Shown: piece after piece, positions 31,977-61,540 of the stretch
Layout: each line of letters starts with the position of its first letter
Numbering within the stretch: position 1 is the first letter of the stretch
Sequence record: FJ373894
DNA: 64,000 nucleotides
Direction: 5' to 3' (one strand)
Origin: Shigella phage Ag3
Translations under genes and position numbers: made by a program
Notes under the pieces: model-generated
Told to the model about the DNA's origin: nothing
Seen by the model: the letters and a program-made list of their open reading frames with translations, nothing else
Database searches by the model: none

Positions 31977-31987
31977 GGGGTATTTAG
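31977..31987 (-). promoter_or_regulatory. late promoter motif CTAAATACCCC (uvsW)
   Basis: Minus-strand CGCTAAATACCCC about 25 nt upstream of uvsW ATG. Confidence 0.55.
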
Positions 31988-32730
31988 CGATCCGGCCAGA
32001 CTCCGTTCTGTTCTTTATCCATGCGATGGTACAGACGAACACGCTCAAACATCTTTGCCAGGATGTCATCGCGGTTGAACTCTATGATGGTTGGCGTCAA
32101 CGATGACTCGTTGGCAATCACATTGATGAGGCGGGTGATCTTGACACCGAACATCTGCTGGAACATAACAGAGTACAAGCACAGTTGGATACTGTAGTCC
32201 TCGATCATTCCCCGCGTCTTCATGGTGTTCGATGTCTTGAAGTCGATGATAGCAGGCTTACCCTCATAAACCCCAATAAGGTCCACTCGACCTGCGAGAC
32301 CAAGCACCTCGCTATATAACGGGATCTCCTGAGCATAGATCTTTGTCATCTTGTTCAGATAGGGGAACAGCTGCTTGAACATGAACATGTATTCGCCAGC
32401 CGCTTCCAACACTTCTTTCATTGGGCGGTTCTTCAAATACAGTTCACATGCAAGGTGCAGCTTCTCCCCTCGGTCAGCGCAACGCATGGTCTCAAGGTCG
32501 GCGGCCTCTGCACCCAGCTTCTCCCTCCAAGCCTCAAGCCATTCATGATCACCAGTACGCCCCAGCATCGTCGTTACAGACGTCAGCTTGACACCAGTTG
32601 GTGACACATAATGACGACCGTTCTCCGTCGTCACACACTCCAGTTCCTTATGAGGAAGTTCGTACTGCTGGAATGTGTAATGACGATTTTCGAAGTCGTT
32701 CAGCTTGCGCAGGGCTTGGAGAGATGCCAT
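31984..32730 (-). CDS. PD-(D/E)xK nuclease (RecB/Cas4-like)
   Basis: GRVDLIGV, IIDFKTS (D-x-K) and QLCLY motifs; start moved to 32730, overlapping uvsY stop. Confidence 0.6.
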   Translation of the reverse strand: MASLQALRKLNDFENRHYTFQQYELPHKELECVTTENGRHYVSPTGVKLTSVTTMLGRTGDHEWLEAWREKLGAEAADLETMRCADRGEKLHLACELYLKNRPMKEVLEAAGEYMFMFKQLFPYLNKMTKIYAQEIPLYSEVLGLAGRVDLIGVYEGKPAIIDFKTSNTMKTRGMIEDYSIQLCLYSVMFQQMFGVKITRLINVIANESSLTPTIIEFNRDDILAKMFERVRLYHRMDKEQNGVWPDR

Positions 32731-33182
32731 CAGGAACCATCCATATATTTTCGCCAATCGATGGCATTCTTCACTTCGTATCCCAGCTTGTTCAGGCGAT
32801 CCAAACAAGTCTCGATGAACTTGACTTTTGCTTTTTGTTCTTGTAACAGAACAGACAGTTCTACATAGTCATCGTCGGCTTTGACCCATGTGTCCAGGTC
32901 AGACTTCAGGGGGCGAACCTTCAGGGGGCGCTCTGCGTAGATGTTCGGGGGTAACTCCCCTGCGTAGTAGCGGCGCAGATAGAGATCGATCTGGCGGAAG
33001 CGCCCGTTGAGGAATTCAAGATAACGCCCCTCACGCAGATAATGCCGTTGTACGGCCATCCAAGAGCGCCCGATTTTCAGTGAGATCTGGTCAAGGTTCA
33101 TGTCTTCTGGGTCCACTGTAATCAGCGGCTCCAGTTCGTTCATGATGTCCTCGGTTGCCATTGTCTGTAGTTGTTCTTTCAT
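32730..33182 (-). CDS. uvsY: recombination mediator UvsY-like
   Basis: Size, position next to uvsW, and C-terminal pattern alignable to T4 UvsY. Confidence 0.6.
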   Translation of the reverse strand: MKEQLQTMATEDIMNELEPLITVDPEDMNLDQISLKIGRSWMAVQRHYLREGRYLEFLNGRFRQIDLYLRRYYAGELPPNIYAERPLKVRPLKSDLDTWVKADDDYVELSVLLQEQKAKVKFIETCLDRLNKLGYEVKNAIDWRKYMDGS

Positions 33183-33224
33183 AAAATATCCCAGCTTGTC
33201 AATGTCATAGAATTATACCGTATT

Positions 33225-33725
33225 TCATGGATTAGAATCAATCACCTTCCCACCAGATAGTGGGACCAGCTGCTGGAACTTGAACGTCACTGTCGTCACC
33301 AGCTGAGGTACAGCCGCATCCACGTCCACCAGTACGTTGTCCAGAGCAGTCGGACGGGCTTCCTCCAGCACGAGAGTGAGGCCAATCGGTCGGTTGAGGT
33401 TATCCAGTAATTCAATGGTAATGTCCTTGGAGACAGCCAAATCCTTGCCGACGTTGCTGGTGATCCATTGGTGGATCTGTAACCATGATTTCCAGTCCTC
33501 GTCTATAACGAAAGTAAATACGACGGGATCATAGGTTAAACGTTCTGAAGGGATAGAAACCAGTACGTCGCCAGGAGACGGACCATCGATGCCTTCAGAG
33601 TATACTCCTGGTATACTGAAGTCGTGGATGTTACGGGTTAGGAGTACAAGGTCTCCGATAGTCAGACGCCACTTATCGGACGCCGCGAAATTAGGGTTTT
33701 CGTTCTTGAATTGTACGTCGGACAT
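33225..33725 (-). CDS. tail-tube-family protein (gp19/gp48/gp54-like paralogue)
   Basis: IPSERLTYDPVVFTFVIDEDWKSWLQIHQW follows the gp19-type motif also present in this window's gp19. Confidence 0.45.
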   Translation of the reverse strand: MSDVQFKNENPNFAASDKWRLTIGDLVLLTRNIHDFSIPGVYSEGIDGPSPGDVLVSIPSERLTYDPVVFTFVIDEDWKSWLQIHQWITSNVGKDLAVSKDITIELLDNLNRPIGLTLVLEEARPTALDNVLVDVDAAVPQLVTTVTFKFQQLVPLSGGKVIDSNP

Positions 33726-33754
33726 AATAGCACCTTTTGCTGTGGAGATATTTT

Positions 33755-34405
33755 GTGACCCTGATGCGCGGGATCAGTAGATTGTTGTTGGCATGCGCGA
33801 TGCTCTTGCTTACGAGCTGTCGCATCTTTGTCACGCCAATAATTTCTGTTTCCGAACTCTGGAACCCAGAAGTACGCACCGTACCCGTGACGTTGTCGGC
33901 CAGTGTTCCTACTTGTAACAAGGGTATGCTGGACATCATCGTGCAAGAGTTCCAGACCTTTCAGAAGCTCGTGCCTTTGGGTTGCTTCGAGGAGAACACG
34001 AGCACCCTCAAGCCATACTGGAAGACCACGATTCCCCTCCTGCGTCGTGGCGATGAAGGGAAGATTCCATACCTATCAGCAAGTATTTATTACTCTCAGA
34101 ACAACAGCATCATCATCACTTTTAATCCATCATTCTACGCCAAGCTGAAGCAACACATGGTTGGGCGACTGAGTGAAACGTCGGATATAATCGTGACGTT
34201 CAAGATCATGAATGACTCAGACAAGCCAGTACGAATCGCAACTCAGGGTGTGTTTGTCAACAACGATGCTGTTGGGAATGAGATGAACATCTTCGAAGTT
34301 AACCCAGGGGGGACGATCTGGATTAGACTGAGTAATGTGGGTGTGAACTCCCTACTGTTGGATGGCATCGAACCAGTGGGAGTTCTTCCGGCGCGGGAGC
34401 GCTGA
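33755..34405 (+). CDS. putative lipoprotein (plus strand)
   Basis: GTG 33755 or ATG 33764 with GGAG RBS; MRGISRLLLACAMLLLTSC signal with lipobox. Confidence 0.5.
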   Translation: MTLMRGISRLLLACAMLLLTSCRIFVTPIISVSELWNPEVRTVPVTLSASVPTCNKGMLDIIVQEFQTFQKLVPLGCFEENTSTLKPYWKTTIPLLRRGDEGKIPYLSASIYYSQNNSIIITFNPSFYAKLKQHMVGRLSETSDIIVTFKIMNDSDKPVRIATQGVFVNNDAVGNEMNIFEVNPGGTIWIRLSNVGVNSLLLDGIEPVGVLPARER

Positions 34406-34406
34406 A

Positions 34407-35135
34407 TTACTTCAGCGCGCTCTTCAGATTATCAGAACCGATGTTGTTGATAACGCCACCAGCACACAGGTCTTTAGCCCACTCAGACAGTACATTGGCG
34501 AACGAGAAGTTCAGACACTTGCTGACCATGTCTTGGATGTGGGCTAACTCTGAGGCAATACCATTGGCGATATCCTGACCGATTTGCGCCACCTGAGCAA
34601 TAGCATCGTTGATGTATCCGGTAACTTCGGCGGCCAGCGCCTGGATCTTTGCCAGGCCAGCGCTCACACCCTGCGCAACTAACTCAGCCAGTTCGGCCAT
34701 CTTGGCAGTAACAGTGCTGAGAGCGCCCTCCATAGCCCCGATCCACTGGCGCCCAAGAGTCTGTATGACGCCGAAGGCATTGTTGATCAGATCACAGTTG
34801 GTCGGCTCGCGCTCGATTGACTTCAGGCCAGATTTGTACGACACGGAAGTCCCGATGCGGGAATACGCTTCGTTCACAGTCTGATCACCATAGTTGTTCA
34901 GTGTGGTGAGGCTGGTGTCGGCAGAGGTGAACATCGTGTTCGTTTCATTGAGTTTGGCTGTGGTTAGACCACCTGCCGTCAGAGCGCCCTGGATTTGCGT
35001 ATTTCCGGTGTTTGCCAGTGCAGCTGTAGTCGCCTTGCCGCTGGTGATTAAACCCTGAGACGTGCTGCTGAGGGACGGGAGAGGATTGTTAAATGCGTTA
35101 CCCTGCTCAAGGGCGTCATAGATCTGTGCGTTCAT
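34407..35135 (-). CDS. late protein, probable virion/structural (Ala/Thr/Gln-rich)
   Basis: Start at 35135 (MNAQIYD...); CTAAATACCCCC late motif about 25 nt upstream. Confidence 0.5.
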   Translation of the reverse strand: MNAQIYDALEQGNAFNNPLPSLSSTSQGLITSGKATTAALANTGNTQIQGALTAGGLTTAKLNETNTMFTSADTSLTTLNNYGDQTVNEAYSRIGTSVSYKSGLKSIEREPTNCDLINNAFGVIQTLGRQWIGAMEGALSTVTAKMAELAELVAQGVSAGLAKIQALAAEVTGYINDAIAQVAQIGQDIANGIASELAHIQDMVSKCLNFSFANVLSEWAKDLCAGGVINNIGSDNLKSALK

Positions 35136-35156
35136 AGAAAATACCCCCATGGATGA

Positions 35157-35169
35157 TGGGGGTATTTAG
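35157..35169 (-). promoter_or_regulatory. late promoter motif CTAAATACCCCC inside a hairpin
   Basis: Upstream of late protein starting 35135; motif is one arm of palindrome AAATACCCCCAT-GGATG-ATGGGGGTATTT. Confidence 0.5.
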
Positions 35170-35382
35170 GTGATCATGGCAGTTTGTAAACGAAGTTGGA
35201 CCAGAACTTCCGAGCGAACTTCTTGGCATAGACCTTCCAGTCGGCGTATTCGCCCTCCTTCAGGTCGTTGTAGGTCTCGAACCCTACTGCTCCCAGGAAG
35301 TACGCCGTGAAGATATAGCAGAACAGATTGACGACAAACATGATGTATCTCCGCTGTGTGAACTCAAATTATTTATGGTATG

Positions 35383-35805
35383 TTACAAAAGGCGCTTGGT
35401 CTTCGGCTTGCCCATCAGTGTGATGTCCACAGGGAGGCCAGCTTTCTTGCAACGGTTGATCATGTCCAGGGTGCCAGTGGACGAACCATCCCACATCGCA
35501 ATCGGATACACTTCCAGCTTGGTCTGCCTGACGAGATCCAATGCCTTGTCTAACATGTCCTGATTGCGTTTGTTGCCCATCCCTTTCCCATACTTTTCAT
35601 AATAGCTCGGAGGGATTGGCATAGGAGTGATATGAACATAATTGATTTCAGCCCAATCACGGCAAATCGTGTCGACACCCGTGGCCTCACCCTCGATCAA
35701 CGTATAGACTTCATGAGGATCGAGGAGTTCGTCCAGCTTGGCGAATACCTTATCCCGCTCGGTGATTGAGCGGGAACCTGTAACGAGTACGATATATTTC
35801 TTCAT
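35383..35805 (-). CDS. SLOG/DUF2493-like Rossmann-fold protein
   Basis: MKKYIVLVTGSRS N-terminal motif; start moved to 35805. Confidence 0.5.
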   Translation of the reverse strand: MKKYIVLVTGSRSITERDKVFAKLDELLDPHEVYTLIEGEATGVDTICRDWAEINYVHITPMPIPPSYYEKYGKGMGNKRNQDMLDKALDLVRQTKLEVYPIAMWDGSSTGTLDMINRCKKAGLPVDITLMGKPKTKRLL

Positions 35806-35810
35806 GGAAC

Positions 35811-36131
35811 TCACAGCGCCCCAAGATTGCCGATGACATACAGGGAGCACAGAGGAGTGCCTGACGAACGGGGTTCGATTGTCATCCCGCTCAGGCGGAT
35901 CAGTTCCAGTAAGCCGTCAGTGGTTTGATACGCGCGTGTCGAACCGTTCGGGCGATAAAGCTCCAGCTCGGTTCTTCCTTCCTTTAATGCATTACGGATA
36001 CGAGCGAACACACTGTGGTCGCCGAACTTCTGTTTCAGAAGGTCCAGCTTGGTGACCAGTCGACGACGCGATTTGCGCGCACGAGGGTTCTCTTTTACGA
36101 CCGCTTCTAAAATTGGGATGCTGTTAGCCAT
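35811..36131 (-). CDS. hypothetical protein
   Basis: 106-codon ORF. Confidence 0.45.
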   Translation of the reverse strand: MANSIPILEAVVKENPRARKSRRRLVTKLDLLKQKFGDHSVFARIRNALKEGRTELELYRPNGSTRAYQTTDGLLELIRLSGMTIEPRSSGTPLCSLYVIGNLGAL

Positions 36132-36190
36132 GATAAAGTCCTCTATTTGTAGGGGATAGGGTATGCGGTTAACATACCCCGTTCAAAGGT

Positions 36191-36472
36191 TTAGAACAAA
36201 TGCTCGCCTTCCACATGGTATGCTAACACGCCGTCAGAACATTCAAAATACATGTTATCATATTCCCACAGAGCGGTGATTTCTTCACCCTGGCAAACTA
36301 CCGAAAACTTCGGCTGGCTGGCCTTAACTGGAAATTTTTCAGGGGAAGAGATTGGGGTGAATTTGGCATTTCTGACGGCCATACCAACAAATTGCTGCAA
36401 TGTTACTTTGTAACGAGAGTGGGTGATAGTACCAGCATTCAGAGCTTCGATCAATTGCGCTTTAGTTGTCAT
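36191..36472 (-). CDS. hypothetical protein
   Basis: Start after GGAACTATATC; early promoter 36522-36550 upstream. Confidence 0.5.
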   Translation of the reverse strand: MTTKAQLIEALNAGTITHSRYKVTLQQFVGMAVRNAKFTPISSPEKFPVKASQPKFSVVCQGEEITALWEYDNMYFECSDGVLAYHVEGEHLF

Positions 36473-36498
36473 GATATAGTTCCTTCATTTCAGAGTCA

Positions 36499-36527
36499 GT
36501 GTCGTACTGCTTATGGAATGAAGTATA
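36499..36527. repeat. 29-bp direct repeat (copy 2) of early-promoter cassette
   Basis: Identical to 853-881. Confidence 0.7.
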
Positions 36528-36557
36528 CGGGGTTTATTGAAGAAGTAAACCCCGTAT
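36522..36557 (-). promoter_or_regulatory. early promoter fused to stem-loop (PeSL-like): -35 GTTTAC, 17 bp, -10 TATACT
   Basis: Perfect hairpin ATACGGGGTTTA/TAAACCCCGTAT contains -35; upstream of gene starting 36472. Confidence 0.6.
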
Positions 36558-36574
36558 TCAACTTTTTATTGAAT

Positions 36575-36811
36575 TTATTTAAAACGGTCAGGAAGGGTGT
36601 CGTGCAGTTCAGCTGACAGCACCAAGAACTTACCATCCGTCGTTGGGAAGCAATAGTCTTTATTGATGTGACGCAAGTGTTCAGCTACAGCTGCCACGCA
36701 GTCATCTGTCACGTCGGTCTTCTCACCAACCCACATGCTGGTTTTGGTGTTCAGCCTACCCTGGAATATAGTACCAGTCAGAGGGCTTGCGCCGATCTTT
36801 TTGATAATCAT
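36575..36811 (-). CDS. hypothetical protein
   Basis: 78-codon ORF. Confidence 0.4.
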   Translation of the reverse strand: MIIKKIGASPLTGTIFQGRLNTKTSMWVGEKTDVTDDCVAAVAEHLRHINKDYCFPTTDGKFLVLSAELHDTLPDRFK

Positions 36812-36819
36812 GTTTGACC

Positions 36820-37260: not shown

Positions 37261-37272
37261 GATATAGATCCT

Positions 37273-37500
37273 TCAGTTCAAAATGGGATGTTCGTCGATA
37301 TCGGACTGCGTTGCAATCTCCCAGCGGACGATGTTCTCGGTTGTGATGAAATCACGGTTCAGGTGAGAGGCTGGCACATACACCATCGTGTCGACCATGA
37401 AGTAACGCTGCTCGTTGTTCCAGGAGTCAACGTAAGCCTCAATGAGGCATACTTCGATCACTTCGCCTTTCGGCTTCTTCACAGTCTTTTTCAGGTACAT
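37273..37500 (-). CDS. hypothetical protein
   Basis: Start moved to 37500 (GAGG RBS); track N-terminus lies in a terminator hairpin. Confidence 0.4.
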   Translation of the reverse strand: MYLKKTVKKPKGEVIEVCLIEAYVDSWNNEQRYFMVDTMVYVPASHLNRDFITTENIVRWEIATQSDIDEHPILN

Positions 37501-39888: not shown

Positions 39889-39979
39889 GATGGTCATTCC
39901 TTACATTGATATTCAGTTAAGTTGAAATTACTTAGTAGTTCAAAATCAAGCCCCCTTTCGAGGGCTGTGGCTGCTAAAA

Positions 39980-40882: not shown

Positions 40883-40891
40883 AGGCTGAAT

Positions 40892-41560
40892 TCAGCCCAG
40901 ATGTCTCAATGCGATATCGAGGCGGCGCAGGAAGTCGTCTTCGAACTGAATATTGGTTTTCACCAATGAATCGACCACTTGCCCTTTGATGTCTTTAGGA
41001 ACCCAAATTCCTGAAGATTCATCAAGCTGCCATTCAACAGATTCGCTCACAGCCTTTACATAACAAACTTGTCCAGAAGGACGGTCGACTGCATCAACAG
41101 CAGTGAGCATAAAGCCAGGTTGAACGTCGTCATAACCGTTCACCGACTTGGTCTCACCAAGGCCACGTGTAGACACGGCCAAGTTGAAGTCTGCTTCAGC
41201 CAGAGCACGAATGATCTGGCCTTTTGGTGTATTTAGCACACGCGCTCGACCGATTGCGTTTGTACCCTCCCAACGGAGGCTCTCGGTCTTCAGCGCAGCT
41301 TCAGCAATATCTGGGAAAGGGTAGTCGGGATGTTTGAGTTCACCGATTGCGCGACGATCCTGAACATACTCTTTGTCATATGCTTCGACAGCTGGTATGC
41401 CCACTTTCTGGAGATCGTAGTTGCGTCCATTACGGTTCACCTGATTACACATCACGAATGGACCTTCGATGAACATAGCCTTACCCCCGGTGGAGGTCGT
41501 GCTTTCACCAATTTGGAGGTCTTTCCCTATCGCCGTGATCTCACGCAACAGTTTCATCAT
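40892..41560 (-). CDS. 21: prohead protease gp21
   Basis: NRNGRNY motif and size as T4 gp21; position. Confidence 0.85.
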   Translation of the reverse strand: MMKLLREITAIGKDLQIGESTTSTGGKAMFIEGPFVMCNQVNRNGRNYDLQKVGIPAVEAYDKEYVQDRRAIGELKHPDYPFPDIAEAALKTESLRWEGTNAIGRARVLNTPKGQIIRALAEADFNLAVSTRGLGETKSVNGYDDVQPGFMLTAVDAVDRPSGQVCYVKAVSESVEWQLDESSGIWVPKDIKGQVVDSLVKTNIQFEDDFLRRLDIALRHLG

Positions 41561-41883: not shown

Positions 41884-42102
41884 TTATTCGTCTTGCGCAG
41901 GAGACATGTCTTGACTCAGAGAGTTCATGACATATGCGGTGCCCTGTTGAACGAGTTCCTGGGCGCGAGCGGACAGTTCAGTTTGACATTCTGCAACAGC
42001 AGCATCGGTGTCACCAGCGATGATTGCTTTTACCAGATCGATAGCGGCCATGTTCATATCCTCTAAATGTTTTCTATACTTAGTCGAATTATTCTTCACC
42101 AC
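41884..42102 (-). CDS. 67: prohead core protein gp67-like
   Basis: 72 aa, immediately after portal gene as in T4. Confidence 0.6.
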   Translation of the reverse strand: MVKNNSTKYRKHLEDMNMAAIDLVKAIIAGDTDAAVAECQTELSARAQELVQQGTAYVMNSLSQDMSPAQDE

Positions 42103-43780: not shown

Positions 43781-43805
43781 GATTAAGTCCTCAACATTTT
43801 CTTGT

Positions 43806-43814
43806 AATTAGTGA
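43806..43814 (-). promoter_or_regulatory. late promoter variant CACTAATTAC (gp20)
   Basis: Upstream of portal gene, just after a hairpin; the same CTAATTAG variant precedes gp19 at 44411-44418. Confidence 0.4.
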
Positions 43815-43846
43815 GGGGGAATAAGATTCCCCCAGCACTGAGGACA

Positions 43847-44380: not shown

Positions 44381-44458
44381 TATAGATTCTCCAAAAAGAG
44401 TTACACAATTCTAATTAGTGCTTTCAATGAAATTGCCCTCCGAAGAGGGCATGTTCCA

Positions 44459-46396: not shown

Positions 46397-46405
46397 TATT
46401 TAGTG
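46397..46405 (-). promoter_or_regulatory. late promoter motif CACTAAATAACT (gp18)
   Basis: About 45 nt upstream of gp18 ATG, overlapping gp17 stop. Confidence 0.5.
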
Positions 46406-50650: not shown

Positions 50651-50673
50651 ATCGATACCCTCAATTTTGAAGG

Positions 50674-50682
50674 TATTTAGTC
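50674..50682 (-). promoter_or_regulatory. late promoter motif CGACTAAATACC (gp14)
   Basis: About 25 nt upstream of gp14 ATG. Confidence 0.5.
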
Positions 50683-55300: not shown

Positions 55301-57151
55301 GGTGACGTCAGCGCCACTTGCATTCTTCACGCTGACCAGCTTGTAGCCGTCGTGGTTGTTCAGCTGTACGCTGGCCGCCGAAGTGAACGTCACAGTCTCG
55401 GTGACTTCGGTAACAGTCTTGGTCTTGATCGTCGCTGTGGTGCGGACCATCAGTGCCAACAGGTTGATAGACTGGTTGGCGTACCCCGCACCCAGGGAAA
55501 TCTGCAGTGCTGAACCGACCGGAGTACCAGTCAGGGACAGTCCCGAAGAGATATCAAACTGAGCTGCAGTGCCGTCTGCCTTCGCCGCTGAGTACAAAGA
55601 GAATTCAGGGCTGAAGCTGTAACCCAGAGGAGCAGAGATAGAGCCTGCGCCTGCCGCGTTCAACGTGATCTTGTTTGACCGCAGGACGGTGTAGTTGATG
55701 TCGATGGTCCCCGTAGGAGCCAGCGTCTTCACACCAAATACAGGCAGAGGGAAGATCAGGTCAATTGCTGAACTCTGGCTGAACTGATTAGACTCCAGTT
55801 CGCAAGAGAACATTGTTGTACCGCTTTCTTCGTATGCAACTTTGGTGACAGTACCCATGTCCCCAGTGACAACGAGGTCGCGCATATACAGACGGAATTC
55901 CGCTCCAGAACGTTCTGCTGAAATCAGGAGGGCAGTGGCCTGGACAGCGCTGGATGCGTTCAGGAACTTGTAACGGATTGTGCGAGAGACAACCGGAACC
56001 CCTTTGGAGTTCTTGGACACCAGATAGTTGCCAGTCGCAACAGCCACAGGGTTGTTGTTCAGGGTATCGGTGTCACGGGCTTTATCAATAGTGACCAGCT
56101 CTTCGCCGAGGTTTTCGATACGACGGCCACGAACGTAGGAGATCCCTGGCTTCATGACCGCCACGAATTTGCTTGCGTCACCACCTTCGGCCGGAGTGTA
56201 CACGCCGCCGTTGTTGTTCTCTTTCAGATGTTCACGCAGGTCGATCTGGTGAGTAGAGACGTTGTAATCCCCGTTGGTCTCATAAGTGCGCTGCGCCATA
56301 CTGTCTTCGAGGATGTTGTAGGTGGACTGGGTCACCATGGACTGAATGCGCCCGTCTTTGACTTTCGCCAGTTCAACGAAGTCGGCCACTTCTTCATCAT
56401 AACCGTAGCGAGACAACACGAGGTCGATGCGCAGGCGATGCGCACCAGGGGCTTTGGAGTTCGGAGTACCCTGAGCATTGGAGAACAGACTTTCGTCTTC
56501 GGTTTCGGTGACGATGGTCTCTGTCACTTTGAATCCAACGCGGTGTGAGGTGGAGTTGGATGCGTTGTCGACGATCAGGGTAGCAGCCTCAACATCCAGG
56601 AACATGCCGCGGACGAAGTAAACGCCTTTGGTCATGCGCGCAACAATAGAGCCACCGACAGTAGCAGCCACACCATAGCCGACACGAATGAAATTATCGT
56701 TCACGTCGTAGGTGTTGAAGTACAGGTTGTCACCAGCTTCGAAACCGTCTGAACTACCACTCTCAGTCATCTCTAAGATGGCGTACATTGTATCCGGCTC
56801 AGCCAGGTAACGTTCCAGAGACAGGACGCGCGCTTTCGCATTGTTGTCCTTACCCAGAACATAGAGTTCGGAGATACCTTCCAGATCGGTGAACTCGCTA
56901 CCACCAGCCAGAGTGAACTTCATGGACACTGCGGTGTTGGTGATTGTCAGGCCGCCGGGGATAACCATCGAACCGTCTTTGAACAGATGGTTCCCGAGTT
57001 TCTCCAGCTGATCCTGGAAGATGGTCTGCATCTGGTTCAGTTCACGCGTCTGAACTTTGATAGGAGCCGGACGGAACAGGATGCGTGAAAAACGCTTCTC
57101 TGGATTCCAATCATCCCAGTATGGGCGGCGGTTGAGGTTCATTTCTTGCAT
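52313..57151 (-). CDS. large tail fibre/tail-spike protein (about 1612 aa)
   Basis: Start at 57151 (GGAG RBS; track extends to 57289); late motif CTAAATATC upstream; Thr/Ser/Gly/Asn-rich repetitive beta-type sequence. Confidence 0.7.
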   Translation of the reverse strand: MQEMNLNRRPYWDDWNPEKRFSRILFRPAPIKVQTRELNQMQTIFQDQLEKLGNHLFKDGSMVIPGGLTITNTAVSMKFTLAGGSEFTDLEGISELYVLGKDNNAKARVLSLERYLAEPDTMYAILEMTESGSSDGFEAGDNLYFNTYDVNDNFIRVGYGVAATVGGSIVARMTKGVYFVRGMFLDVEAATLIVDNASNSTSHRVGFKVTETIVTETEDESLFSNAQGTPNSKAPGAHRLRIDLVLSRYGYDEEVADFVELAKVKDGRIQSMVTQSTYNILEDSMAQRTYETNGDYNVSTHQIDLREHLKENNNGGVYTPAEGGDASKFVAVMKPGISYVRGRRIENLGEELVTIDKARDTDTLNNNPVAVATGNYLVSKNSKGVPVVSRTIRYKFLNASSAVQATALLISAERSGAEFRLYMRDLVVTGDMGTVTKVAYEESGTTMFSCELESNQFSQSSAIDLIFPLPVFGVKTLAPTGTIDINYTVLRSNKITLNAAGAGSISAPLGYSFSPEFSLYSAAKADGTAAQFDISSGLSLTGTPVGSALQISLGAGYANQSINLLALMVRTTATIKTKTVTEVTETVTFTSAASVQLNNHDGYKLVSVKNASGADVTSNFTLDGGQRDAAYYRSNLLSGTGAISGTFTVVYQYFAHSSGDFFTADSYSSIDYPDIPNYVSSSSGTVYGLADCLDFRPKITSGASDTDMVRPNTAIVLDAEYYLPRIDAVYLADNGVFNVARGVSSNNLASPAIPDNGMRLYELMIPPYTANIDDIQIRTIDNRRYTMRDIGKLETRISNVEYYTSLSQLESSAMTQQVFDPITGNPRFKNGIAADPFKDFRLIDDLSADWVGSIDTDNGRLRPFVQQNAVDLTPVGWNNVQDGMVVCNYTREISVRQDYATTTINVNPYAVFNWEGFLKLNPTTDYWFENYYVAPRVINETINTRGAIKEGSVYGTWRTVSVSERVWEPHGAGGVWWGYRYRTTVSTRDVTTYTYTDKTTTTLTGEQIVETQVIPYMRKTNINFEATGLRPFTRVYPFFSGRDVSAYCTPNGGSLGGALNTDANGNIKGVFAVPQNETVKFNTGDNVFRLTDSPVDSKSADDTLTNAEAVHKSFGKKQGIQKTYVNTRVLGYTATKSTENKTETVEVAKWKDPIAQSFMVATNIGGEYIEGIEVFFSTKSRDIPITLEIREMSNGLPATTVVTRKTLNPSEVSVSTDSSVPTMFKFDYPVYLQAQTEFAIVLLANTQDYNAYIAEMGKKNLLTNEYIAKQPYTGVFFTSSNGTTWTPNQTADMKFRVYRCNFSAGSNIVTFDAKVGPKIRPLGLNTVKCVNGSSTVTVYAPGHGLTAGESVTLSGLTGGCGFTPEQLNAQHTVTDATFTTFKFVLSSNADSDGQIGGEEASFLGNYLVDMFYASVTNSALEGSVLKLEYRYRDATSNSFSDWAEFESDTDVSLSTEGIYRQVGDFQVRATMTRNESNVYTAPMIDGDDFTIIFNTYGVDPFEDVFSYVTKDIGFDNPCTTLKQYFGAMLPSQSSMTVQVKLLRAGQEMDDVAWETVTPTSPLVNDGSTFFEYEYDKTVDSTNPFVGLKIRLLVRGNRTAPPSFKDFRLIALA

Positions 57152-57185
57152 TTTGATGCTCCATCGATAGGTGCCATTATAGAGA

Positions 57186-57194
57186 TATTTAGTA
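57186..57194 (-). promoter_or_regulatory. late promoter motif ACTAAATATC (large fibre gene)
   Basis: About 35 nt upstream of ATG 57151, downstream of terminator 57219-57243. Confidence 0.5.
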
Positions 57195-57214
57195 TACAGC
57201 CAACCGAGGAATAG

Positions 57215-57245
57215 AAAGAAAAAGCCCCTCATCTGAGGGGCTTTG
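57215..57245 (-). terminator. rho-independent terminator after tail spike 57250..59034
   Basis: AAAAGCCCCTC-atctg-AGGGGCTTT followed by T-rich tract. Confidence 0.7.
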
Positions 57246-57249
57246 TCTA

Positions 57250-59034
57250 TCAAGCGGAAGCATTCCATTGACCAGCATTGATCACCCATGTGCTCGTTAC
57301 TTTTGAATACACCATTTTCACGAGATTCATTTTCGTGGTGGCGGTGTTGGCACCAGTCACATCGACAGGGACACCCGCTATGCTCAATGAAGCAATGTTT
57401 GAACCTCTCAGTAAAAACGTCAGCTCCATACCATCATATGGCGTACCGGTAAATGCGATGTTGGAACCAGAAGAAACGTTTCTTCGATAGCACCCATAAC
57501 CGCTGTTTATGTCGACAGAGTCAGTTGTGAGCTGTAATGGCAATTTTCCACGACTTAATTTACATGCCGTTACAACGCCGAGATCATCAATGCCTCGACT
57601 TGCGCCCCAACGTGCGATGTTGACTATGTGGCCAGTCACACCAGCGTCTTGCGCACCACCAATGTCGAAGAAACCTCCAGCCCTTGTTCCCCATATCGGC
57701 TCATCAATTAAGCTGTTGGTGGAGTTGGTTATACTATACCCATGCGCGAGGGTTCCTTGGCTTGGGGAAGAGTGTGTACAATCTCGGAATGTGGCATCTT
57801 GAGAACCACTGATGCGGACATCAGAGATACTATTGTTCTCATAATACATTCCATACACCTTAGTTCCCTTGGCCTGATCCAAGAATCCATATTTCGTGGT
57901 ATTCTGGCTGAATCCGTTAACAAAACAGACTGCTTCTGTAGGGAATGTTGTGGTATAATCCCAAGAAGTCCCGCCGTCGGTGGAGTGTCTTACGATAATA
58001 CCATAATCCGGCATATCCACTTCCGGAGCACCAGAATAACCATCAAACCCTGTTATAACGATAGCATTGGCTCCGTTCTGTACTATTAACCGACTCGAAC
58101 CAGCCCCACCACCGATAACCTCACAACCGTCTATCTTCAATCCATAACACAAAGTCCCTATCTCTATCCCGATATTATTAATGGCTGTGCCCATGTCCAC
58201 CCACATCATATCTAGATGACCATGGTTCCTCCAATATTTGGCTCTGAAAGCGACGCAACCCGTTTTACCATTCAACGATATCCTGATATTGTGTAATTTG
58301 CAGTTTCTCACTGCATTCCCACCAGAACGAGAAGGATCAATCGTGAGTACACCAACGTTGTTTTCACCAGCCAAGAATAATGCGCCGGAATGTGCATAAA
58401 TTTCAGAGTTAGGATAAAACGCCAACGCCTGGCCAGTTACCGTATAGTTGCCAGGAAGAAACTGGAATGTCCCACCCTGGGATAATTTAGTTTGTATAAG
58501 AGACTGAGACATCGAAGGGTCGATAACAGTTAGACGATAAAACCCAGAGTATAACTCATCTCTTAATGCATCTGGATCCAATTTCACCCAGTTAGAACTT
58601 GACAATCCACCAGTATTGGCAATGGTGCCACCAGCGTTTACAGATTTGGGTAAAGTCCCACCCCAACGGTAAAGACTTGTACCATCAGAAACGACTTCAT
58701 TTCTTACACGTATCGTGAACCCCGAATCGAAGTTTTCGACCAAAGTTACAAATTCCTTCCGAAGTACTGCAAGAACCCCCAGGTCTACGGTGCCCGTATT
58801 GTGTACGAGAATGCCGTCTGCCATGCTGGTGATGGTAGCGCCAGCAGGCAGGTTAGAAGGCAGAGCATAGGAGCGCTGGGGCACCTTGTCGTAGATCACC
58901 TTATAACCAGTCAGGGTGGATCCTGGTTTAGCATACAGAACCTCGGACTTCTTGCACCCGAACTTGCGTGCAATAGAGTCCTTGTTGGTCTCTTTCGAGA
59001 CCGTACCTTTCGGCTGTGAAAATTGCGGATTCAT
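57250..59034 (-). CDS. tail-spike protein (MNPQFSQPKG N-terminal anchor type)
   Basis: Shares N-terminus with 61698..63719 product; Gly/Asn/Ser-rich beta-helix-like body; late motif CAACTAAATAAGCC upstream. Confidence 0.7.
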   Translation of the reverse strand: MNPQFSQPKGTVSKETNKDSIARKFGCKKSEVLYAKPGSTLTGYKVIYDKVPQRSYALPSNLPAGATITSMADGILVHNTGTVDLGVLAVLRKEFVTLVENFDSGFTIRVRNEVVSDGTSLYRWGGTLPKSVNAGGTIANTGGLSSSNWVKLDPDALRDELYSGFYRLTVIDPSMSQSLIQTKLSQGGTFQFLPGNYTVTGQALAFYPNSEIYAHSGALFLAGENNVGVLTIDPSRSGGNAVRNCKLHNIRISLNGKTGCVAFRAKYWRNHGHLDMMWVDMGTAINNIGIEIGTLCYGLKIDGCEVIGGGAGSSRLIVQNGANAIVITGFDGYSGAPEVDMPDYGIIVRHSTDGGTSWDYTTTFPTEAVCFVNGFSQNTTKYGFLDQAKGTKVYGMYYENNSISDVRISGSQDATFRDCTHSSPSQGTLAHGYSITNSTNSLIDEPIWGTRAGGFFDIGGAQDAGVTGHIVNIARWGASRGIDDLGVVTACKLSRGKLPLQLTTDSVDINSGYGCYRRNVSSGSNIAFTGTPYDGMELTFLLRGSNIASLSIAGVPVDVTGANTATTKMNLVKMVYSKVTSTWVINAGQWNASA

Positions 59035-59077
59035 AAGAATCTCCTGTTGTTTATTCTCGATGGTATGCGCAACGGCT

Positions 59078-59086
59078 TATTTAGTT
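59078..59086 (-). promoter_or_regulatory. late promoter motif CAACTAAATAAGCC (tail spike)
   Basis: About 45 nt upstream of ATG 59034. Confidence 0.5.
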
Positions 59087-59203
59087 GTCGGCGAGTCCAG
59101 GTATGCCGCCACCGAATATGTTGCTGGTGAACGCGCAACTGGATTGGCTTATCGAACAGACTGGAACAAAGCGCGTTATCAGGTCTGACATGGACGAATG
59201 CGA

Positions 59204-59230
59204 CTGAAGAAAAGGTCCCTTTCGGGACCT
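59204..59230 (-). terminator. rho-independent terminator after tail spike 59236..61512
   Basis: AGGTCCC-tttc-GGGACCT followed by TTTTCTTC on minus strand. Confidence 0.7.
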
Positions 59231-59235
59231 TGACT

Positions 59236-61512
59236 TTAGTTCTGAATCAACACGGCATTGTACGATAGTGGAAAATCACCAGAAGTTCCTGAACGGGTAA
59301 ACTGGTAGTTAGACCCAGAAACACCAGCAGCGACAGACGCCAACTGACTCGCTGAAGTGGCTGTCACCGCAATGCTACGGCCAGATACCAGGCTAACTAT
59401 ACCGACAGCGGCAGTAACGGACCCAACGCCATTCGGGATAGTAACTAACCCGACTTGCTTGTCCGGGTGTGTCGGGGAGTCATAATGGTAGAACTTACAC
59501 GAAGCTCCACCCACAAAAACCTGCCCGTAAAAGTAACAATTTTTTGTTGTTACGCTAGAGCCACCAGTTTGGTTATCTAAAACAGTAATTCCCAGTGGCT
59601 TATTTGCCAGGAATGTACAATTTTCCGCAGTTACTCCAACTACAGAGTTCACTAAAAGGTCTCCCTGCTGTGCTGCATCAATGTCATTGTTCTGGAAAAG
59701 GCAATTCACAAGCTTTGGTCTTGCCGGTACTAGGCCACCTTCTTTAATAATCTCAAGACCAAAGTAACGGCTGTCAGAGAATTTAACACCTGTAGCCATA
59801 AACTCATTACAAGAACCCTGAATTACCACACAAGATTTATTACCGCTGCGGTTGCTGCTGTAATACCCGTTTGTTAATTGTAAATACTGAGTATTAGTCG
59901 CTCTCAGTGCAATACCGGTGGCAAGGTCTGACATGACGTCAGTCAGCCATATCCACCGGCAGTTAACTATCTCTATAGCTGCGGTGCCTAAAGTGTTATC
60001 ACCACAGGCGTAGAATCTATCGCCTAGCAGCTCAATACCCTCTATGTTCGTGCTCACATGAGAGCTGTTTTCGGTTATGAACAGCCCGCATTTACACCCA
60101 TTGAATGTATTCTGGTTAAATCGAGTGTTAATCTGTCCCCCACCAAGTACAACACCGTATGTACTGGCAGCGAATCTGTTGAACCTGAAATCAAGCTCTC
60201 CAGCCCCATAACCGCCGGGTGCATCTACGCAATATTTAAGGAAGGCAAAAGAACAATTTTCAACTGTAACCAAAGGCGCTTCGATTCGTATACCAGTTGA
60301 TGTGGATTCTACGGTAACTGACTGAATCGTAAAGTCCGCAAGTCTTGCAAATTCATGAGTAACCTTGAAACATGTATCTCCGTCATTTTCAGGGCAGAAT
60401 GTCGTGTTGAGCTTGCCCGCTCCGATAAGATTGGCGGGGCTATCAATAACAATATCTTTTACGAAATATTTCTCCGTTGCCGCCGGGACAAATACTGTAT
60501 TAGACGCTGTAGAGGCGAGCTTAGCTGCGGCCAATGCGGCATTGATGGCCTGTGACCATGTATTAGACCCAGTTTTATAGTCGGCGGCATTGAAATAGAC
60601 GGCATGGCGGGCGTTAATTATAGCCTGCTCTACAGTAACACCAGAAGAAGTCCCGACTAACGTAGCCCCGGAGCTTGCCGCTAAATCGTTTCTTAAATTT
60701 GGGTCCGTTTGTGGAGTCCAGTCGGCAACAGCAACAGGGTTGGTACTTGCTGCGATTACATGCGGCAATGCACCACTCCAGGAATACCAGGTCTTACTTA
60801 CCGGGTCATATACCACTTTGTCACGGTCATTAATTGTTAAAGTGCCGCCTACGCTAAAAGTTAAACCAGAGTCAGCGTAGCCATTTTCAATAGCCCAGTT
60901 GAGTTTTAACTTGATCAAATCATCACCAACAGAGTCTAAACTCTGTTGCACCGTTTGCCCCGACGTAGTTCCAACAAGGCTTGCCCCATTATCAGAAGCC
61001 AACGCCAGGTAATTTTGTTTTACGGACATTTCTGACACGACCCAAACTCCAGCCGCAGGCGAACCTGTGAGGAAACTCACAACTCCTGTTGTGCTGTTGT
61101 AGCTGTAGTTGACACCAGGAACCTGGAACTTCCCGTCAACATACAGAGACTGTACGCCGTAGGTTGTGAAGTCTGGCGTGAAAGTAGTCTCGTTACCGTC
61201 CGCCTGAAACTTGTAGATTCTGATCCCGTTTTCATAATCTTCTGGGGACAGGATCTTGTCAAACAGACAGTACACTACATCATCAGCCTCTAGTGCTCGA
61301 CCGAGGTTGACTGTGTTGCCATCGATTTCATAGTTGTCGACAGGAACCTGAACACCACCATTGATAGTGATGAAGCCCGTAACGGGATAGAACGGGAGGG
61401 AGATAAACGTCTCTCCACCCGTTGCGGTATAAGTGTATGGAATCTGGTGTGGTGCTGTTACAACCGCTCCAAAGATGCTCTCGACGTTTCTGGTCATTTG
61501 AAGATACCCCAT
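59236..61512 (-). CDS. tail-spike protein (distinct N-terminal domain)
   Basis: 758 aa; Gly/Asn/Thr-rich beta-helix-like body; late motif CGCTAAATACCCC upstream. Confidence 0.7.
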   Translation of the reverse strand: MGYLQMTRNVESIFGAVVTAPHQIPYTYTATGGETFISLPFYPVTGFITINGGVQVPVDNYEIDGNTVNLGRALEADDVVYCLFDKILSPEDYENGIRIYKFQADGNETTFTPDFTTYGVQSLYVDGKFQVPGVNYSYNSTTGVVSFLTGSPAAGVWVVSEMSVKQNYLALASDNGASLVGTTSGQTVQQSLDSVGDDLIKLKLNWAIENGYADSGLTFSVGGTLTINDRDKVVYDPVSKTWYSWSGALPHVIAASTNPVAVADWTPQTDPNLRNDLAASSGATLVGTSSGVTVEQAIINARHAVYFNAADYKTGSNTWSQAINAALAAAKLASTASNTVFVPAATEKYFVKDIVIDSPANLIGAGKLNTTFCPENDGDTCFKVTHEFARLADFTIQSVTVESTSTGIRIEAPLVTVENCSFAFLKYCVDAPGGYGAGELDFRFNRFAASTYGVVLGGGQINTRFNQNTFNGCKCGLFITENSSHVSTNIEGIELLGDRFYACGDNTLGTAAIEIVNCRWIWLTDVMSDLATGIALRATNTQYLQLTNGYYSSNRSGNKSCVVIQGSCNEFMATGVKFSDSRYFGLEIIKEGGLVPARPKLVNCLFQNNDIDAAQQGDLLVNSVVGVTAENCTFLANKPLGITVLDNQTGGSSVTTKNCYFYGQVFVGGASCKFYHYDSPTHPDKQVGLVTIPNGVGSVTAAVGIVSLVSGRSIAVTATSASQLASVAAGVSGSNYQFTRSGTSGDFPLSYNAVLIQN

Positions 61513-61529
61513 AGAGGATTTGCCAATAT

Positions 61530-61540
61530 GGGGTATTTAG
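61530..61540 (-). promoter_or_regulatory. late promoter motif CGCTAAATACCCC (tail spike)
   Basis: About 20 nt upstream of ATG 61512; same 18-mer as the uvsW copy. Confidence 0.5.

What the first reader, a model, noticed from the sequence alone, without database searches (positions are those of the whole stretch)
31977..61540. Late promoters use CTAAATAcc rather than T4 TATAAATA
CTAAATA followed by C-rich bases lies 20-45 nt upstream of gp22, gp18, gp14, the large fibre gene, two tail-spike genes, the late protein at 35135 and uvsW; gp19 and gp20 carry CTAATTA variants. From memory this resembles the late motif reported for ViI-like (Ackermannviridae) phages; that attribution should be checked.
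Basis: partly seen in the sequence, partly recalled or inferred. Interest (0 to 1): 0.5.

Follow-up and report, generated by a model that had tools for sequence, protein, structure and literature searches.

The report
Known ViI-type phage late promoter motif
The short DNA word CTAAATA really does sit just upstream of the virus-particle genes of this phage, and is almost certainly where its own late sigma factor starts transcription, but the motif was already published for this phage family, so the finding is correct and ordinary.

Summary
The window is an Agtrevirus (Ackermannviridae), 98.8% identical to Shigella phage Gloob. CTAAATA occurs 11 times, all on the coding strand, against 3.4 expected. 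It is the most enriched of all 7-mers in that zone (P = 5e-11). gp19 and gp20 carry CTAATTA; gp23 and a small head gene carry CTAAGTA.

The sites are conserved at orthologous positions in four other Ackermannviridae genera and in a distant Vibrio phage. There is no -35 element. T4's TATAAATA occurs only once, elsewhere in the window. Homologues of gp55 and gp45 are in the window; gp33 is in the near-identical relative.

The attribution is right. 'CTAAATAcCcc' is listed in print as a regulatory motif of an Ackermannviridae genome, and the LIMEstone1 GenBank record annotates the orthologous sites as late promoters. The same 7-mer is also the published late consensus of Aeromonas phage Aeh1.

One addition: the C-rich tail is present at only about half the sites. 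There it forms the 5' arm of a conserved hairpin that covers the Shine-Dalgarno sequence, as in T4 gene e.

I found no transcript-mapping data for this family in the held paper library. Verdict: already known; low interest.

The parts
61534..61540 (-). CTAAATA(cccc), 36 nt upstream of tail-spike gene 59236-61497
   Evidence: orthologous tail-spike sites in LIMEstone1, SH19, KpS110, MAM1
59078..59084 (-). CTAAATA, 43 nt upstream of tail-spike gene 57250-59034
57186..57192 (-). CTAAATA, 34 nt upstream of the large fibre (VriC-like) gene starting at 57151. It follows terminator 57221-57244 and heads the unit fibre / virion protein / hyp / gp13.
   Evidence: ACTAAATA is the only invariant intergenic block in the five-genus alignment A2.
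50674..50680 (-). CTAAATA(cc), 23 nt upstream of gp14; heads gp14-gp15-gp16-gp17
46397..46403 (-). CTAAATA, 42 nt upstream of gp18 (tail sheath), 3 nt after the gp17 stop codon
40874..40880 (-). CTAAATA, 27 nt upstream of gp22 (scaffold)
35163..35169 (-). CTAAATA(ccccc), 27 nt upstream of the gene starting at 35135, the orthologue of LIMEstone1 ORF129 (a confirmed structural protein)
31981..31987 (-). CTAAATA(cccc), 25 nt upstream of uvsW; its TAA is the stop codon of the upstream exonuclease gene
44412..44418 (-). Variant CTAATTA, 31 nt upstream of gp19 (tail tube), directly after terminator 44434-44451
   Evidence: exact CTAAATA upstream of gp19 in phiMAM1
43805..43811 (-). Variant CTAATTA, 24 nt upstream of gp20 (portal), after terminator 43829-43844
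   Evidence: exact CTAAATA in phiMAM1
42077..42083 (-). Variant CTAAGTA, 25 nt upstream of the small head-region gene starting at 42051; heads hyp18 / scaffold / gp21
   Evidence: exact CTAAATA at the orthologous place in KpS110 and phiMAM1, and probably SH19
39929..39935 (-). Variant CTAAGTA, 40 nt upstream of gp23 (major capsid protein), after terminator 39949-39966
   Evidence: ACTAAGTA is conserved in four genera and is ACTAAATA in phiMAM1.
35139..35167 (-). Hairpin AAAUACCCCCAU / AUGGGGGUAUUU. The 5' arm is the last 5 nt of the motif plus the C-run. The 3' arm is the G-run (probable Shine-Dalgarno sequence) plus UAUUU.
   Evidence: -17.2 kcal/mol, z = -3.9. Present in all five genera with changed inner pairs CAU/AUG, CAA/UUG, CAC/GUG.
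61504..61536 (-). Hairpin AUACCCCAUA / UAUGGGGUAU overlapping the motif and the G-run upstream of the tail-spike start
   Evidence: -16.3 kcal/mol, z = -3.9
50655..50676 (-). Hairpin AUACCUUCA / UGAGGGUAU overlapping the motif and the gp14 Shine-Dalgarno sequence (GAGGG)
   Evidence: -10.2 kcal/mol, z = -3.5; present in 3 of 5 genera
6479..7270 (-). gp55 homologue (late sigma factor, 263 aa), the presumed reader of the motif
   Evidence: phrog_234 'late sigma transcription factor', E = 6.8e-52. A profile of homologues hits T4 gp55 chain 7d7c_F at E = 3.5e-32. 100% identical to P46FS4 ORF72.
29070..29738 (-). gp45 sliding-clamp homologue (co-activator of late transcription in T4)
   Evidence: 100% identical to the P46FS4 'sliding clamp' protein. 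The Pfam gp45-slide_C match is weak: E = 0.0017, below the curated cut-off.
41230..41236 (-). CTAAATA inside gp21, in frame; probably not a promoter
   Evidence: The same in-gene position carries it in LIMEstone1 and Vibrio phage D503, but not in SH19, KpS110 or MAM1.
2268..2274 (-). CTAAATA(cc) in the loop of a terminator-like hairpin, 80 nt upstream of the next start codon; status uncertain
   Evidence: z = -2.65

Best explanation
The motif is the -10-type late promoter of this Ackermannviridae phage.

Proposed mechanism:
- Host core RNA polymerase carries the phage's gp55-like late sigma factor (window 6479-7270).
- The holoenzyme recognises (A)CTAAATA, corresponding to T4 positions -13 to -6, without any -35 element.
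- Transcription starts about 6-7 nt downstream.
- By analogy with T4, it is activated by gp33 and by the DNA-loaded sliding clamp gp45 (window 29070-29738). This ties late transcription to replication.

Each late transcription unit between 30.4 and 61.5 kb begins with the motif or a one-mismatch variant, often directly after an intrinsic terminator.

The difference from T4 (TATAAATA) is an A to C change at -12. In T4 this is the base that gp55 flips into a protein pocket.

The C-rich tail seen at about half the sites is not a promoter element. Together with the last bases of the motif it forms the 5' arm of a hairpin whose 3' arm is the G-rich ribosome-binding site. Read-through transcripts from upstream would therefore be terminated or untranslatable. 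Late transcripts start inside the 5' arm and would be open for translation, as in T4 gene e.

Shown: the position, enrichment, orientation and conservation of the motif; the absence of a -35 element; the presence of the factors; the predicted hairpins.
Inferred: the start site, the late timing, the dependence on gp55, gp33 and gp45, and the function of the hairpins.
For: Enrichment and position:
- 11 copies against 3.4 expected, all on the coding strand.
- 8 of 11 lie 23-43 nt upstream of start codons. CTAAATA is the top 7-mer of all; P = 5e-11. Markov models of the upstream segments expect 0.3-1.2 against 8 observed.
- Information content is confined to (A)CTAAATA. Nothing is conserved between -45 and -2. 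An A/T-only position lies 7 nt after the motif.

Conservation (gene starts):
- Exact motifs 23-42 nt upstream of orthologous late genes: 9 of 12 in LIMEstone1, 8-9 of 10 in PhiSH19, 8 of 10 in KpS110 and 9 of 11 in phiMAM1.
- ACTAAATA is the only invariant block in the fibre-gene intergenic alignment, which has 58% mean identity.
- phiMAM1 has exact CTAAATA where the window has variants, at gp23, gp20, gp19 and hyp18.
- Vibrio phage D503 (gp55 35% identical) has CTAAATA 26-33 nt upstream of sheath, portal and two other genes.
- In P46FS4, + strand late genes (gp6, ORF1) carry + strand motifs.

Context:
- Motifs follow predicted terminators at the fibre gene, gp19, gp20 and gp23.
- gp55 homologue; gp45; gp33 in P46FS4.

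Literature:
- CTAAATAcCcc listed for an Ackermannviridae genome (PMC7283392).
- LIMEstone1 late-promoter annotation.
- Aeh1 late consensus CTAAATA, beginning at -12 (PMC1524935).
- T4 gp55 flips A-12, A-9 and A-8 (PMC7892883).

Hairpins:
- z = -3.5 to -3.9 at three sites.
- Conserved in five genera with changed pairs.
- Predicted Shine-Dalgarno accessibility rises from 0.10 to 0.57 for hyp33 when the transcript starts 6 nt after the motif.
- T4 precedent: genes e, soc, 49 and I-TevI (PMC3014915).
Against: - There is no experimental 5'-end or timing evidence for any Ackermannviridae phage in the held literature.
- Three of the 11 exact copies are not in promoter position (41236, 1685, 2274).
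- The most abundant late gene, gp23, has only a one-mismatch variant.
- In the rest of the P46FS4 genome the exact 7-mer is not significantly enriched: 4 against 2.0 expected, and 5 against 2.2. Several late genes there use A or T instead of C, so 'CTAAATA' is a preference rather than a rule.
- Only 3 of 12 sites have a statistically strong hairpin.
- No gp55 residue change explains C at -12. The Y97 to W109 substitution is absent from Vibrio phage D503, which still uses CTAAATA.
Confidence: 0.85

Rival explanations
1. The motif is the -10 hexamer of a host sigma-70 (or phage 'middle') promoter. It would be read by unmodified host holoenzyme rather than by a gp55-type factor.
For: - TAAATA is AT-rich and loosely like TATAAT.
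- At the fibre gene, a sigma-70-like TTGGCT-N16-TATAAT overlaps the motif (57203..57176).
Against: - No -35-like conservation exists anywhere from -45 to -2 across the 12 sites.
- Sigma-70-like matches in the region are no more frequent than in shuffles: 19 against 16.4, and 21 against 18.9.
- The TATAAT at the fibre gene is not conserved in LIMEstone1, KpS110 or MAM1, whereas ACTAAATA is.
- The genes served are virion genes and uvsW. The clearly sigma-70-like early promoters of this phage have a different, strongly conserved form (TTTACT...TATACT/TATAAT) and sit in front of small early genes.
Confidence: 0.05
2. The motif acts at the RNA level, for example as a processing site, a stability element or a binding site for the RegA-like translational repressor, rather than as a DNA promoter.
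For: - It lies in the leader region upstream of start codons on the sense strand.
- A RegA homologue is encoded at 27078-27542.
- At some sites the motif is part of a predicted RNA hairpin.
Against: - At the fibre gene, gp19, gp20 and gp23 the motif lies just downstream of an intrinsic terminator. It would often not be transcribed from upstream.
- Its distance to the start codon varies from 23 to 43 nt, and reaches 236 nt at LIMEstone1 gp19. This does not fit an operator overlapping the ribosome-binding site.
- The identical 7-mer is the late-promoter consensus derived independently for Aeh1, and it shares the TAAATA core with T4's mapped late promoters.
Confidence: 0.05
3. The enrichment is a by-product of AT-rich intergenic composition, of stop codons (the motif contains TAA), or of recent common ancestry of the compared genomes.
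For: - At uvsW the TAA of the motif is the stop codon of the upstream gene.
- The gp23 and gp18 leaders are so conserved (89% and 78% identity) that conservation of the motif there is uninformative.
Against: - Markov models trained on the upstream segments themselves expect at most 1.2 copies against 8 observed.
- The antisense word occurs once in those segments.
- The TAA serves as a stop codon at only one of eight sites.
- The motif is the only invariant block in a 58%-identical spacer.
- It recurs in a Vibrio phage whose gp55 is only 35% identical.
Confidence: 0.02

Closest known systems
Ackermannviridae ('Viunalikevirus') conserved motif CTAAATAcCcc
   Same: - Same phage family; the window is 98.8% identical to an Agtrevirus.
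- Same word: three sites match the full 11-mer CTAAATACCCC (61540, 35169, 31987).
- Same orthologous positions as the 'putative late promoter' features in the LIMEstone1 GenBank record.
- The motif string is quoted in PMC7283392.
   Different: Nothing essential; this is the same feature in another isolate. This analysis adds three points:
- The cCcc tail is present at only about half of the sites and coincides with hairpins that cover the Shine-Dalgarno sequence.
- C at -12 is replaced by A or T at several late genes.
- gp23, gp20 and gp19 use conserved one-mismatch variants.
Bacteriophage T4 late promoter TATAAATA (gp55, gp33, gp45)
   Same: - A single 8-bp -10-like element with no -35 element.
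- It sits upstream of virion genes and of uvsW.
- Shared core TAAATA.
- The phage encodes gp55, gp45 and (in the relative) gp33 homologues.
   Different: - Positions -13 and -12 are (A/G)C instead of TA.
- TATAAATA itself occurs once in 64 kb, and not at a known late gene.
- -12 is the adenine that T4 gp55 flips into a deep pocket stacked on Y97.
- The gp55 homologue is 263 aa against 185 aa in T4, and is too diverged for a direct pairwise hit.
- Pocket residues: N13, R57, F86 and T99 are kept; L54 is M, H95 is F and Y97 is W.
Aeromonas phage Aeh1 late promoter consensus CTAAATA (Nolan et al. 2006)
   Same: The identical 7-mer, placed at -12 to -6, with C at -12 as the strong determinant. Aeh1's gp55 is also described as substantially diverged (PMC1524935).
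   Different: - Aeh1 is a T4-like myovirus of a different family (Straboviridae).
- I did not retrieve its gp55, so I cannot say whether the shared specificity is inherited or convergent.
T4 gene e / soc / 49 / I-TevI leader hairpins overlapped by late promoters
   Same: [quoted passage not shown]
- The late promoter lies in or just before the DNA encoding the 5' arm, so late transcripts lack that arm (PMC3014915).
- The same geometry is predicted at hyp33, gp14, one tail spike and the P46FS4 endolysin.
   Different: - Here it is prediction only.
- The 5' arm includes the last 3-5 nt of the promoter word itself.
- At hyp33 the hairpin is followed by a U-run, so it may act as a terminator as well (LIMEstone1 annotates it as one).

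Membership tests
T4-type (gp55-dependent) late promoter | A single -10-like element with no conserved -35 element | tested here: met
   Information content across 12 sites is confined to (A)CTAAATA; nothing is conserved from -45 to -2.
T4-type (gp55-dependent) late promoter | Sense-strand location just upstream of late (virion, lysis, uvsW) genes | tested here: met
   8 exact and 4 variant sites lie 23-43 nt upstream of structural genes and uvsW. Orientation follows the gene in P46FS4.
T4-type (gp55-dependent) late promoter | The phage encodes gp55, gp33 and gp45 homologues | tested here: met
   gp55. gp45: with a weak Pfam match. gp33: only in the near-identical P46FS4, outside the window.
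T4-type (gp55-dependent) late promoter | Consensus TATAAATA at -13 to -6 | tested here: not met
   TATAAATA occurs once, at 7812 on the + strand. The late sites read (A/G)CTAAATA; the core TAAATA is shared.
T4-type (gp55-dependent) late promoter | Transcripts start 6-7 nt downstream, only late, and depend on gp55 and on replication | not testable with these tools
   No RNA data. No Ackermannviridae start-site mapping was found in the held papers.
Ackermannviridae CTAAATAcCcc motif | The genome belongs to the Ackermannviridae | tested here: met
   98.8% identity over 10 kb to Agtrevirus phages; taxonomy of P46FS4.
Ackermannviridae CTAAATAcCcc motif | Sequence match, including the C-rich tail | tested here: met
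   7 of 11 copies are CTAAATAC, 5 are CTAAATACC and 3 are CTAAATACCCC. The tail is absent at the gp18, gp22, fibre and one tail-spike sites.
Ackermannviridae CTAAATAcCcc motif | Conserved at orthologous positions across the family | tested here: met
   for Limestonevirus, Kuttervirus, Taipeivirus and Miltonvirus.
T4 gene e-type leader (ribosome-binding-site hairpin bypassed by a late start) | A stable hairpin pairs the Shine-Dalgarno sequence or AUG with upstream sequence | tested here: met
   hyp33 -17.2, tail spike -16.3 and gp14 -10.2 kcal/mol, with z = -3.5 to -3.9. The other 9 sites show no significant structure.
T4 gene e-type leader (ribosome-binding-site hairpin bypassed by a late start) | The late start site falls inside the 5' arm | tested here: inconclusive
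   This follows only if T4 spacing holds (start 6-7 nt after the motif). Under that assumption, predicted Shine-Dalgarno accessibility rises at hyp33, the fibre gene, gp22, gp20 and gp14, but not at the other sites.
T4 gene e-type leader (ribosome-binding-site hairpin bypassed by a late start) | Conservation of the helix with compensatory changes | tested here: met
   The hyp33 helix is present in five genera, with inner pairs CAU/AUG, CAA/UUG and CAC/GUG. With only five sequences this has no formal statistical support.

The most novel reading that the evidence does not exclude
The C-rich tail of the published 'CTAAATAcCcc' motif may not be a promoter determinant. It may be the anti-Shine-Dalgarno arm of a family-wide switch in which the late promoter word itself is built into a hairpin.

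At hyp33, gp14, a tail spike and the endolysin, transcripts arriving from upstream would be terminated or translationally silenced. Transcripts started by gp55 inside the hairpin would be translated.

In a second arrangement, the motif sits in the loop of an intrinsic terminator (window 2274; P46FS4 ORF85).

I did not find this described for the Ackermannviridae. It would extend the T4 gene e principle to structural genes.
Probability: 0.45. Interest if true: 0.4.

Novelty: already known. Interest (0 to 1): 0.2.

Why it matters
- For annotation, the motif gives a reliable way to mark late transcription units in Ackermannviridae genomes. These phages are widely used for biocontrol and for engineered reporter phages.
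- For mechanism, it is a natural specificity variant of the gp55 late sigma factor. It differs from T4 exactly at the -12 base that T4 gp55 flips into a pocket, so the pair could be used to work out how that pocket selects its base.
- The hairpin coupling, if real, would explain the C-rich tail of the published consensus. It would show that the T4 lysozyme-type 'late start bypasses an inhibitory hairpin' device is conserved outside the Straboviridae.
- None of this changes the status of the finding itself, which rediscovers a published motif.

Tried and rejected
1. gp55 Y97 to W109 as the cause of C at -12: rejected. I aligned the window gp55 to T4 gp55 through a profile. The residue that stacks on the -12 base is W instead of Y. 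However, Vibrio phage D503 gp55 keeps Y and still has CTAAATA upstream of sheath, portal and other genes.
2. Direct detection of T4 gp55 homology failed. phmmer against PDB sequences and Pfam found nothing. PHROGs and the profile search succeeded.
3. Original literature: the Viunalikevirus paper and the two Aeh1 mobE papers are not held. What I say about them rests on memory, or on citations in other papers.
4. Searches for Ackermannviridae transcriptomics or start-site data found nothing relevant.
5. The C-rich tail as a general promoter extension: rejected. It is absent at 4 of 8 exact sites and at all 4 variant sites.
6. A general 5' hairpin at all sites: rejected. Only 3 of 12 are significant.
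7. The in-gene copy in gp21 as an internal promoter: left open, probably not one. It is absent in three of five genera.
8. Column-wise pair counting on the MAFFT alignments was abandoned, because gaps fall inside the helices. Each sequence was folded separately instead.
9. Loci L004-L006, L008 and L014 never appeared in the script sandbox. Cross-genus positions were therefore read from the DNA search outputs and the annotation tables, not computed in bulk.

Full report
**What the window is.** A 10-kb stretch of the window is 98.8% identical to Shigella phage Gloob and 98.7% identical to Salmonella phage P46FS4 (Ackermannviridae, Aglimvirinae, Agtrevirus). It is 90% identical to the Dickeya LIMEstone phages and about 80% identical to the Kuttervirus and Taipeivirus phages. 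G+C is 50.3%. I transferred gene starts from the P46FS4 RefSeq annotation by tblastn. Nearly all genes are on the - strand.

CTAAATA occurs 11 times, all on the - strand. Shuffles give 3.4 +/- 1.5, and 0 of 100 reach 11.

Eight copies lie upstream of start codons, with these spacers:
- tail spike, start 61497: 36 nt
- tail spike, start 59034: 43 nt
- large VriC-like fibre, start 57151: 34 nt
- gp14, start 50650: 23 nt
- gp18, start 46354: 42 nt
- gp22, start 40846: 27 nt
- the protein starting at 35135: 27 nt. Its LIMEstone1 orthologue, ORF129, is a confirmed structural protein.
- uvsW, start 31955: 25 nt

The zone 15-60 nt upstream of starts holds 2.8% of all positions but 8 of the 11 copies (binomial P = 5e-11). 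In an unbiased ranking of all 7-mers for enrichment in that zone, CTAAATA is first and its overlapping neighbours follow. Markov models of order 0-3, trained on the upstream segments themselves, expect 0.3-1.2 copies against 8 observed. The antisense word occurs once.

The CTAATTA variants at gp19 (spacer 31) and gp20 (spacer 24) are real. In addition, CTAAGTA lies 40 nt upstream of gp23 and 25 nt upstream of the small gene starting at 42051.

The remaining three exact copies are not in promoter position:
- 41236 lies in frame inside gp21.
- 1685 lies inside a gene.
- 2274 lies in the loop of a terminator-like hairpin, 80 nt from the next start.

T4's TATAAATA occurs once in the window, at 7812 on the + strand, 35 nt upstream of the + strand gene 7855-8622.

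**Anatomy.** Across the 12 sites, information content is confined to (A)CTAAATA. The base before C is A in 9 of 12 sites and never T. Nothing is conserved between -45 and -2, so there is no -35 element. One position, 7 nt after the motif, is A or T in all 12 sites.

At the fibre gene, gp19, gp20 and gp23 the motif follows a predicted intrinsic terminator by a few to about 30 nt. The region therefore reads as a series of units, each headed by the motif: tail spike; tail spike; fibre to gp13; gp14 to gp17; gp18; gp19; gp20; hyp18 to gp21; gp22; gp23; hyp33; uvsW.

**Conservation.** I took gene starts from the annotation tables and motif positions from the DNA search. Exact motifs 23-42 nt upstream of orthologous late genes number:
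- 9 of 12 in LIMEstone1 (Limestonevirus)
- 8-9 of 10 in PhiSH19 (Kuttervirus)
- 8 of 10 in KpS110 (Taipeivirus)
- 9 of 11 in phiMAM1 (Miltonvirus)

Almost all are on the coding strand. In the fibre-gene spacer (58% mean identity), ACTAAATA is the only invariant intergenic block.

phiMAM1 carries exact CTAAATA at gp23, gp20, gp19 and hyp18, where the window has one-mismatch variants. The gp23 variant ACTAAGTA is itself conserved in four genera.

In the rest of the P46FS4 genome, exact copies lie upstream of gp48, gp6, the ORF1 tail spike and some uncharacterised genes. On + strand genes the motif is on the + strand. Other late genes there have A or T in place of C: gp5 and gp54 have ATAAATA; gp2, gp4 and the endolysin have TTAAATA. 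C at the first position is therefore a preference and not a rule, and the exact 7-mer is not significantly enriched in those parts of the genome.

A distant Vibrio phage, D503 (gp55 35% identical), also has CTAAATA 26-33 nt upstream of sheath, portal and two other genes.

**The factors.** Window 6479-7270 (-) encodes a 263-aa protein that matches PHROG 234, 'late sigma transcription factor' (E = 6.8e-52). A profile of it and five homologues hits T4 gp55 (7d7c chain F) at E = 3.5e-32. The sliding clamp gp45 is at 29070-29738. gp33 is annotated in P46FS4, outside the window.

**How it most likely works.** T4 late promoters are TATAAATA at -13 to -6 (PMC1524935). In the cryo-EM structure, gp55 unstacks the non-template strand and inserts A-12, A-9 and A-8 into pockets. 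A-12 stacks on Y97 (PMC7892883).

Aligned to T4, the motif here reads C-12, T-11, A-10, A-9, A-8, T-7, A-6. The two bases flipped at -9 and -8 are kept, and the change is at the third flipped base.

Of the seven pocket residues named in that paper:
- N13, R57, F86 and T99 are conserved in the window protein.
- L54 is M, H95 is F107 and Y97 is W109.

I tested whether the Y to W change could explain C at -12. It does not: D503 keeps Y and still uses CTAAATA. The determinant remains unknown.

**The C-rich tail.** Only 4 of the 8 exact upstream sites, and none of the variants, are followed by a C-run. At three of those four sites the last 3-5 nt of the motif plus the C-run pair with a G-rich stretch plus UAU(UU) just before the start codon:
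- hyp33: -17.2 kcal/mol, z = -3.9
- tail spike at 61540: -16.3 kcal/mol, z = -3.9
- gp14: -10.2 kcal/mol, z = -3.5

The other nine sites are no different from shuffles.

The hyp33 helix is present in all five genera, with different inner pairs (CAU/AUG, CAA/UUG, CAC/GUG). LIMEstone1 annotates it as a terminator.

If late transcripts start 6 nt after the motif, as in T4, the 5' arm is missing from them. The predicted unpaired probability of the Shine-Dalgarno region then rises from 0.10 to 0.57 at hyp33. Smaller rises occur at the fibre gene, gp22, gp20 and gp14.

The P46FS4 endolysin leader has the same design: TTAAATA-CCUCUGCA...UGUGGAGG-UAUUU, -16.1 kcal/mol, z = -8.

This is the arrangement documented for T4 genes e, soc, 49 and I-TevI. 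There, late promoters lie in the DNA that encodes the 5' strand of an inhibitory hairpin (PMC3014915). I therefore read the 'cCcc' of the published consensus as an anti-Shine-Dalgarno arm at a subset of genes. This is an inference from predicted structures.

**What is known.**
- The CBA120 paper (2011) stated that the late motif of the ViI family had not yet been identified (PMC3184105).
- The AG3 paper searched with TATAAATA, allowing one mismatch (PMC3121705).
- The LIMEstone paper reported 33 late promoters (PMC3296691). Its GenBank record places them at the orthologues of the sites found here.
- The EspM4VN paper lists 'CTAAATAcCcc' among two regulatory motifs found in that genome (PMC7283392). 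From memory, the motif was defined in Adriaenssens et al. 2012 (Arch Virol 157:2035), which is not held.
- Independently, Nolan et al. 2006 derived CTAAATA, beginning at -12, as the late consensus of Aeromonas phage Aeh1, and noted its diverged gp55.
- From memory, Gibb and Edgell (J Bacteriol 2007) showed that an Aeh1-specific late promoter drives mobE. I could not read that paper.
- I found no start-site or time-course RNA data for any Ackermannviridae phage.

**Verdict.** The feature is already known for this phage family, so interest is low. The qualifications and the hairpin reading above are modest additions that need RNA-level experiments.

Noticed in passing
window 19361-21004 (-): A single 547-aa ORF joins the first 222 residues of the P46FS4 ribose-phosphate pyrophosphokinase to residues 227-554 of its nicotinamide phosphoribosyltransferase. 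This is an apparent in-frame deletion that fuses two NAD-salvage genes.
   Followed up: no
window, e.g. 36522-36549 (-), and upstream of the starts at 848, 12046, 15442, 15729, 16122, 37500: Small early-region genes carry a strongly conserved sigma-70-like promoter (TTTACTTCTTCAATA...TATACT / TATAAT / TATTAT). It is often followed by a GC hairpin and the leader GGACTATATCATG. This is probably the family's other published motif, TTCAAT[N14]TATAAT.
   Followed up: partly
window 7812-7819 (+): The only exact T4-type TATAAATA(tccc) in 64 kb lies 35 nt upstream of the + strand gene 7855-8622. It sits in the divergent spacer shared with the RNase H gene.
   Followed up: no
window 41230-41236 (-), inside gp21: An in-frame CTAAATA lies 321 nt into the prohead protease gene. 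The same word lies at the same offset in LIMEstone1 (324 nt) and in the distant Vibrio phage D503 (324 nt), but not in PhiSH19, KpS110 or phiMAM1.
   Followed up: partly
window 2236-2292 (-); L007 3270-3331 (+): Two terminator-like hairpins followed by U-runs carry (C)TAAATA in the loop (z = -2.65 and -4.15). A start 6 nt after the motif would fall in the 3' arm, so a late transcript would escape the terminator.
   Followed up: partly
L007 6877-6907 (+) (P46FS4 endolysin leader, outside the window): A 13-bp hairpin pairs TTAAATA-CCUCUGCA with the Shine-Dalgarno sequence GGAGG of the endolysin gene (-16.1 kcal/mol, z = -8). This closely parallels the T4 lysozyme (gene e) leader.
   Followed up: partly
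window 57176-57203 (-): A sigma-70-like TTGGCT-N16-TATAAT (10 of 12 matches) overlaps the late motif of the large fibre gene. The TATAAT is present only in the window and partly in PhiSH19, so it is probably a chance match.
   Followed up: partly
window 33749-33755 (-), upstream of the tail completion gene starting at 33725: This late gene has only CAAAATA, 23 nt upstream of its start. The uvsY and exonuclease genes downstream of it have no motif. How this unit is transcribed late is unclear.
   Followed up: no
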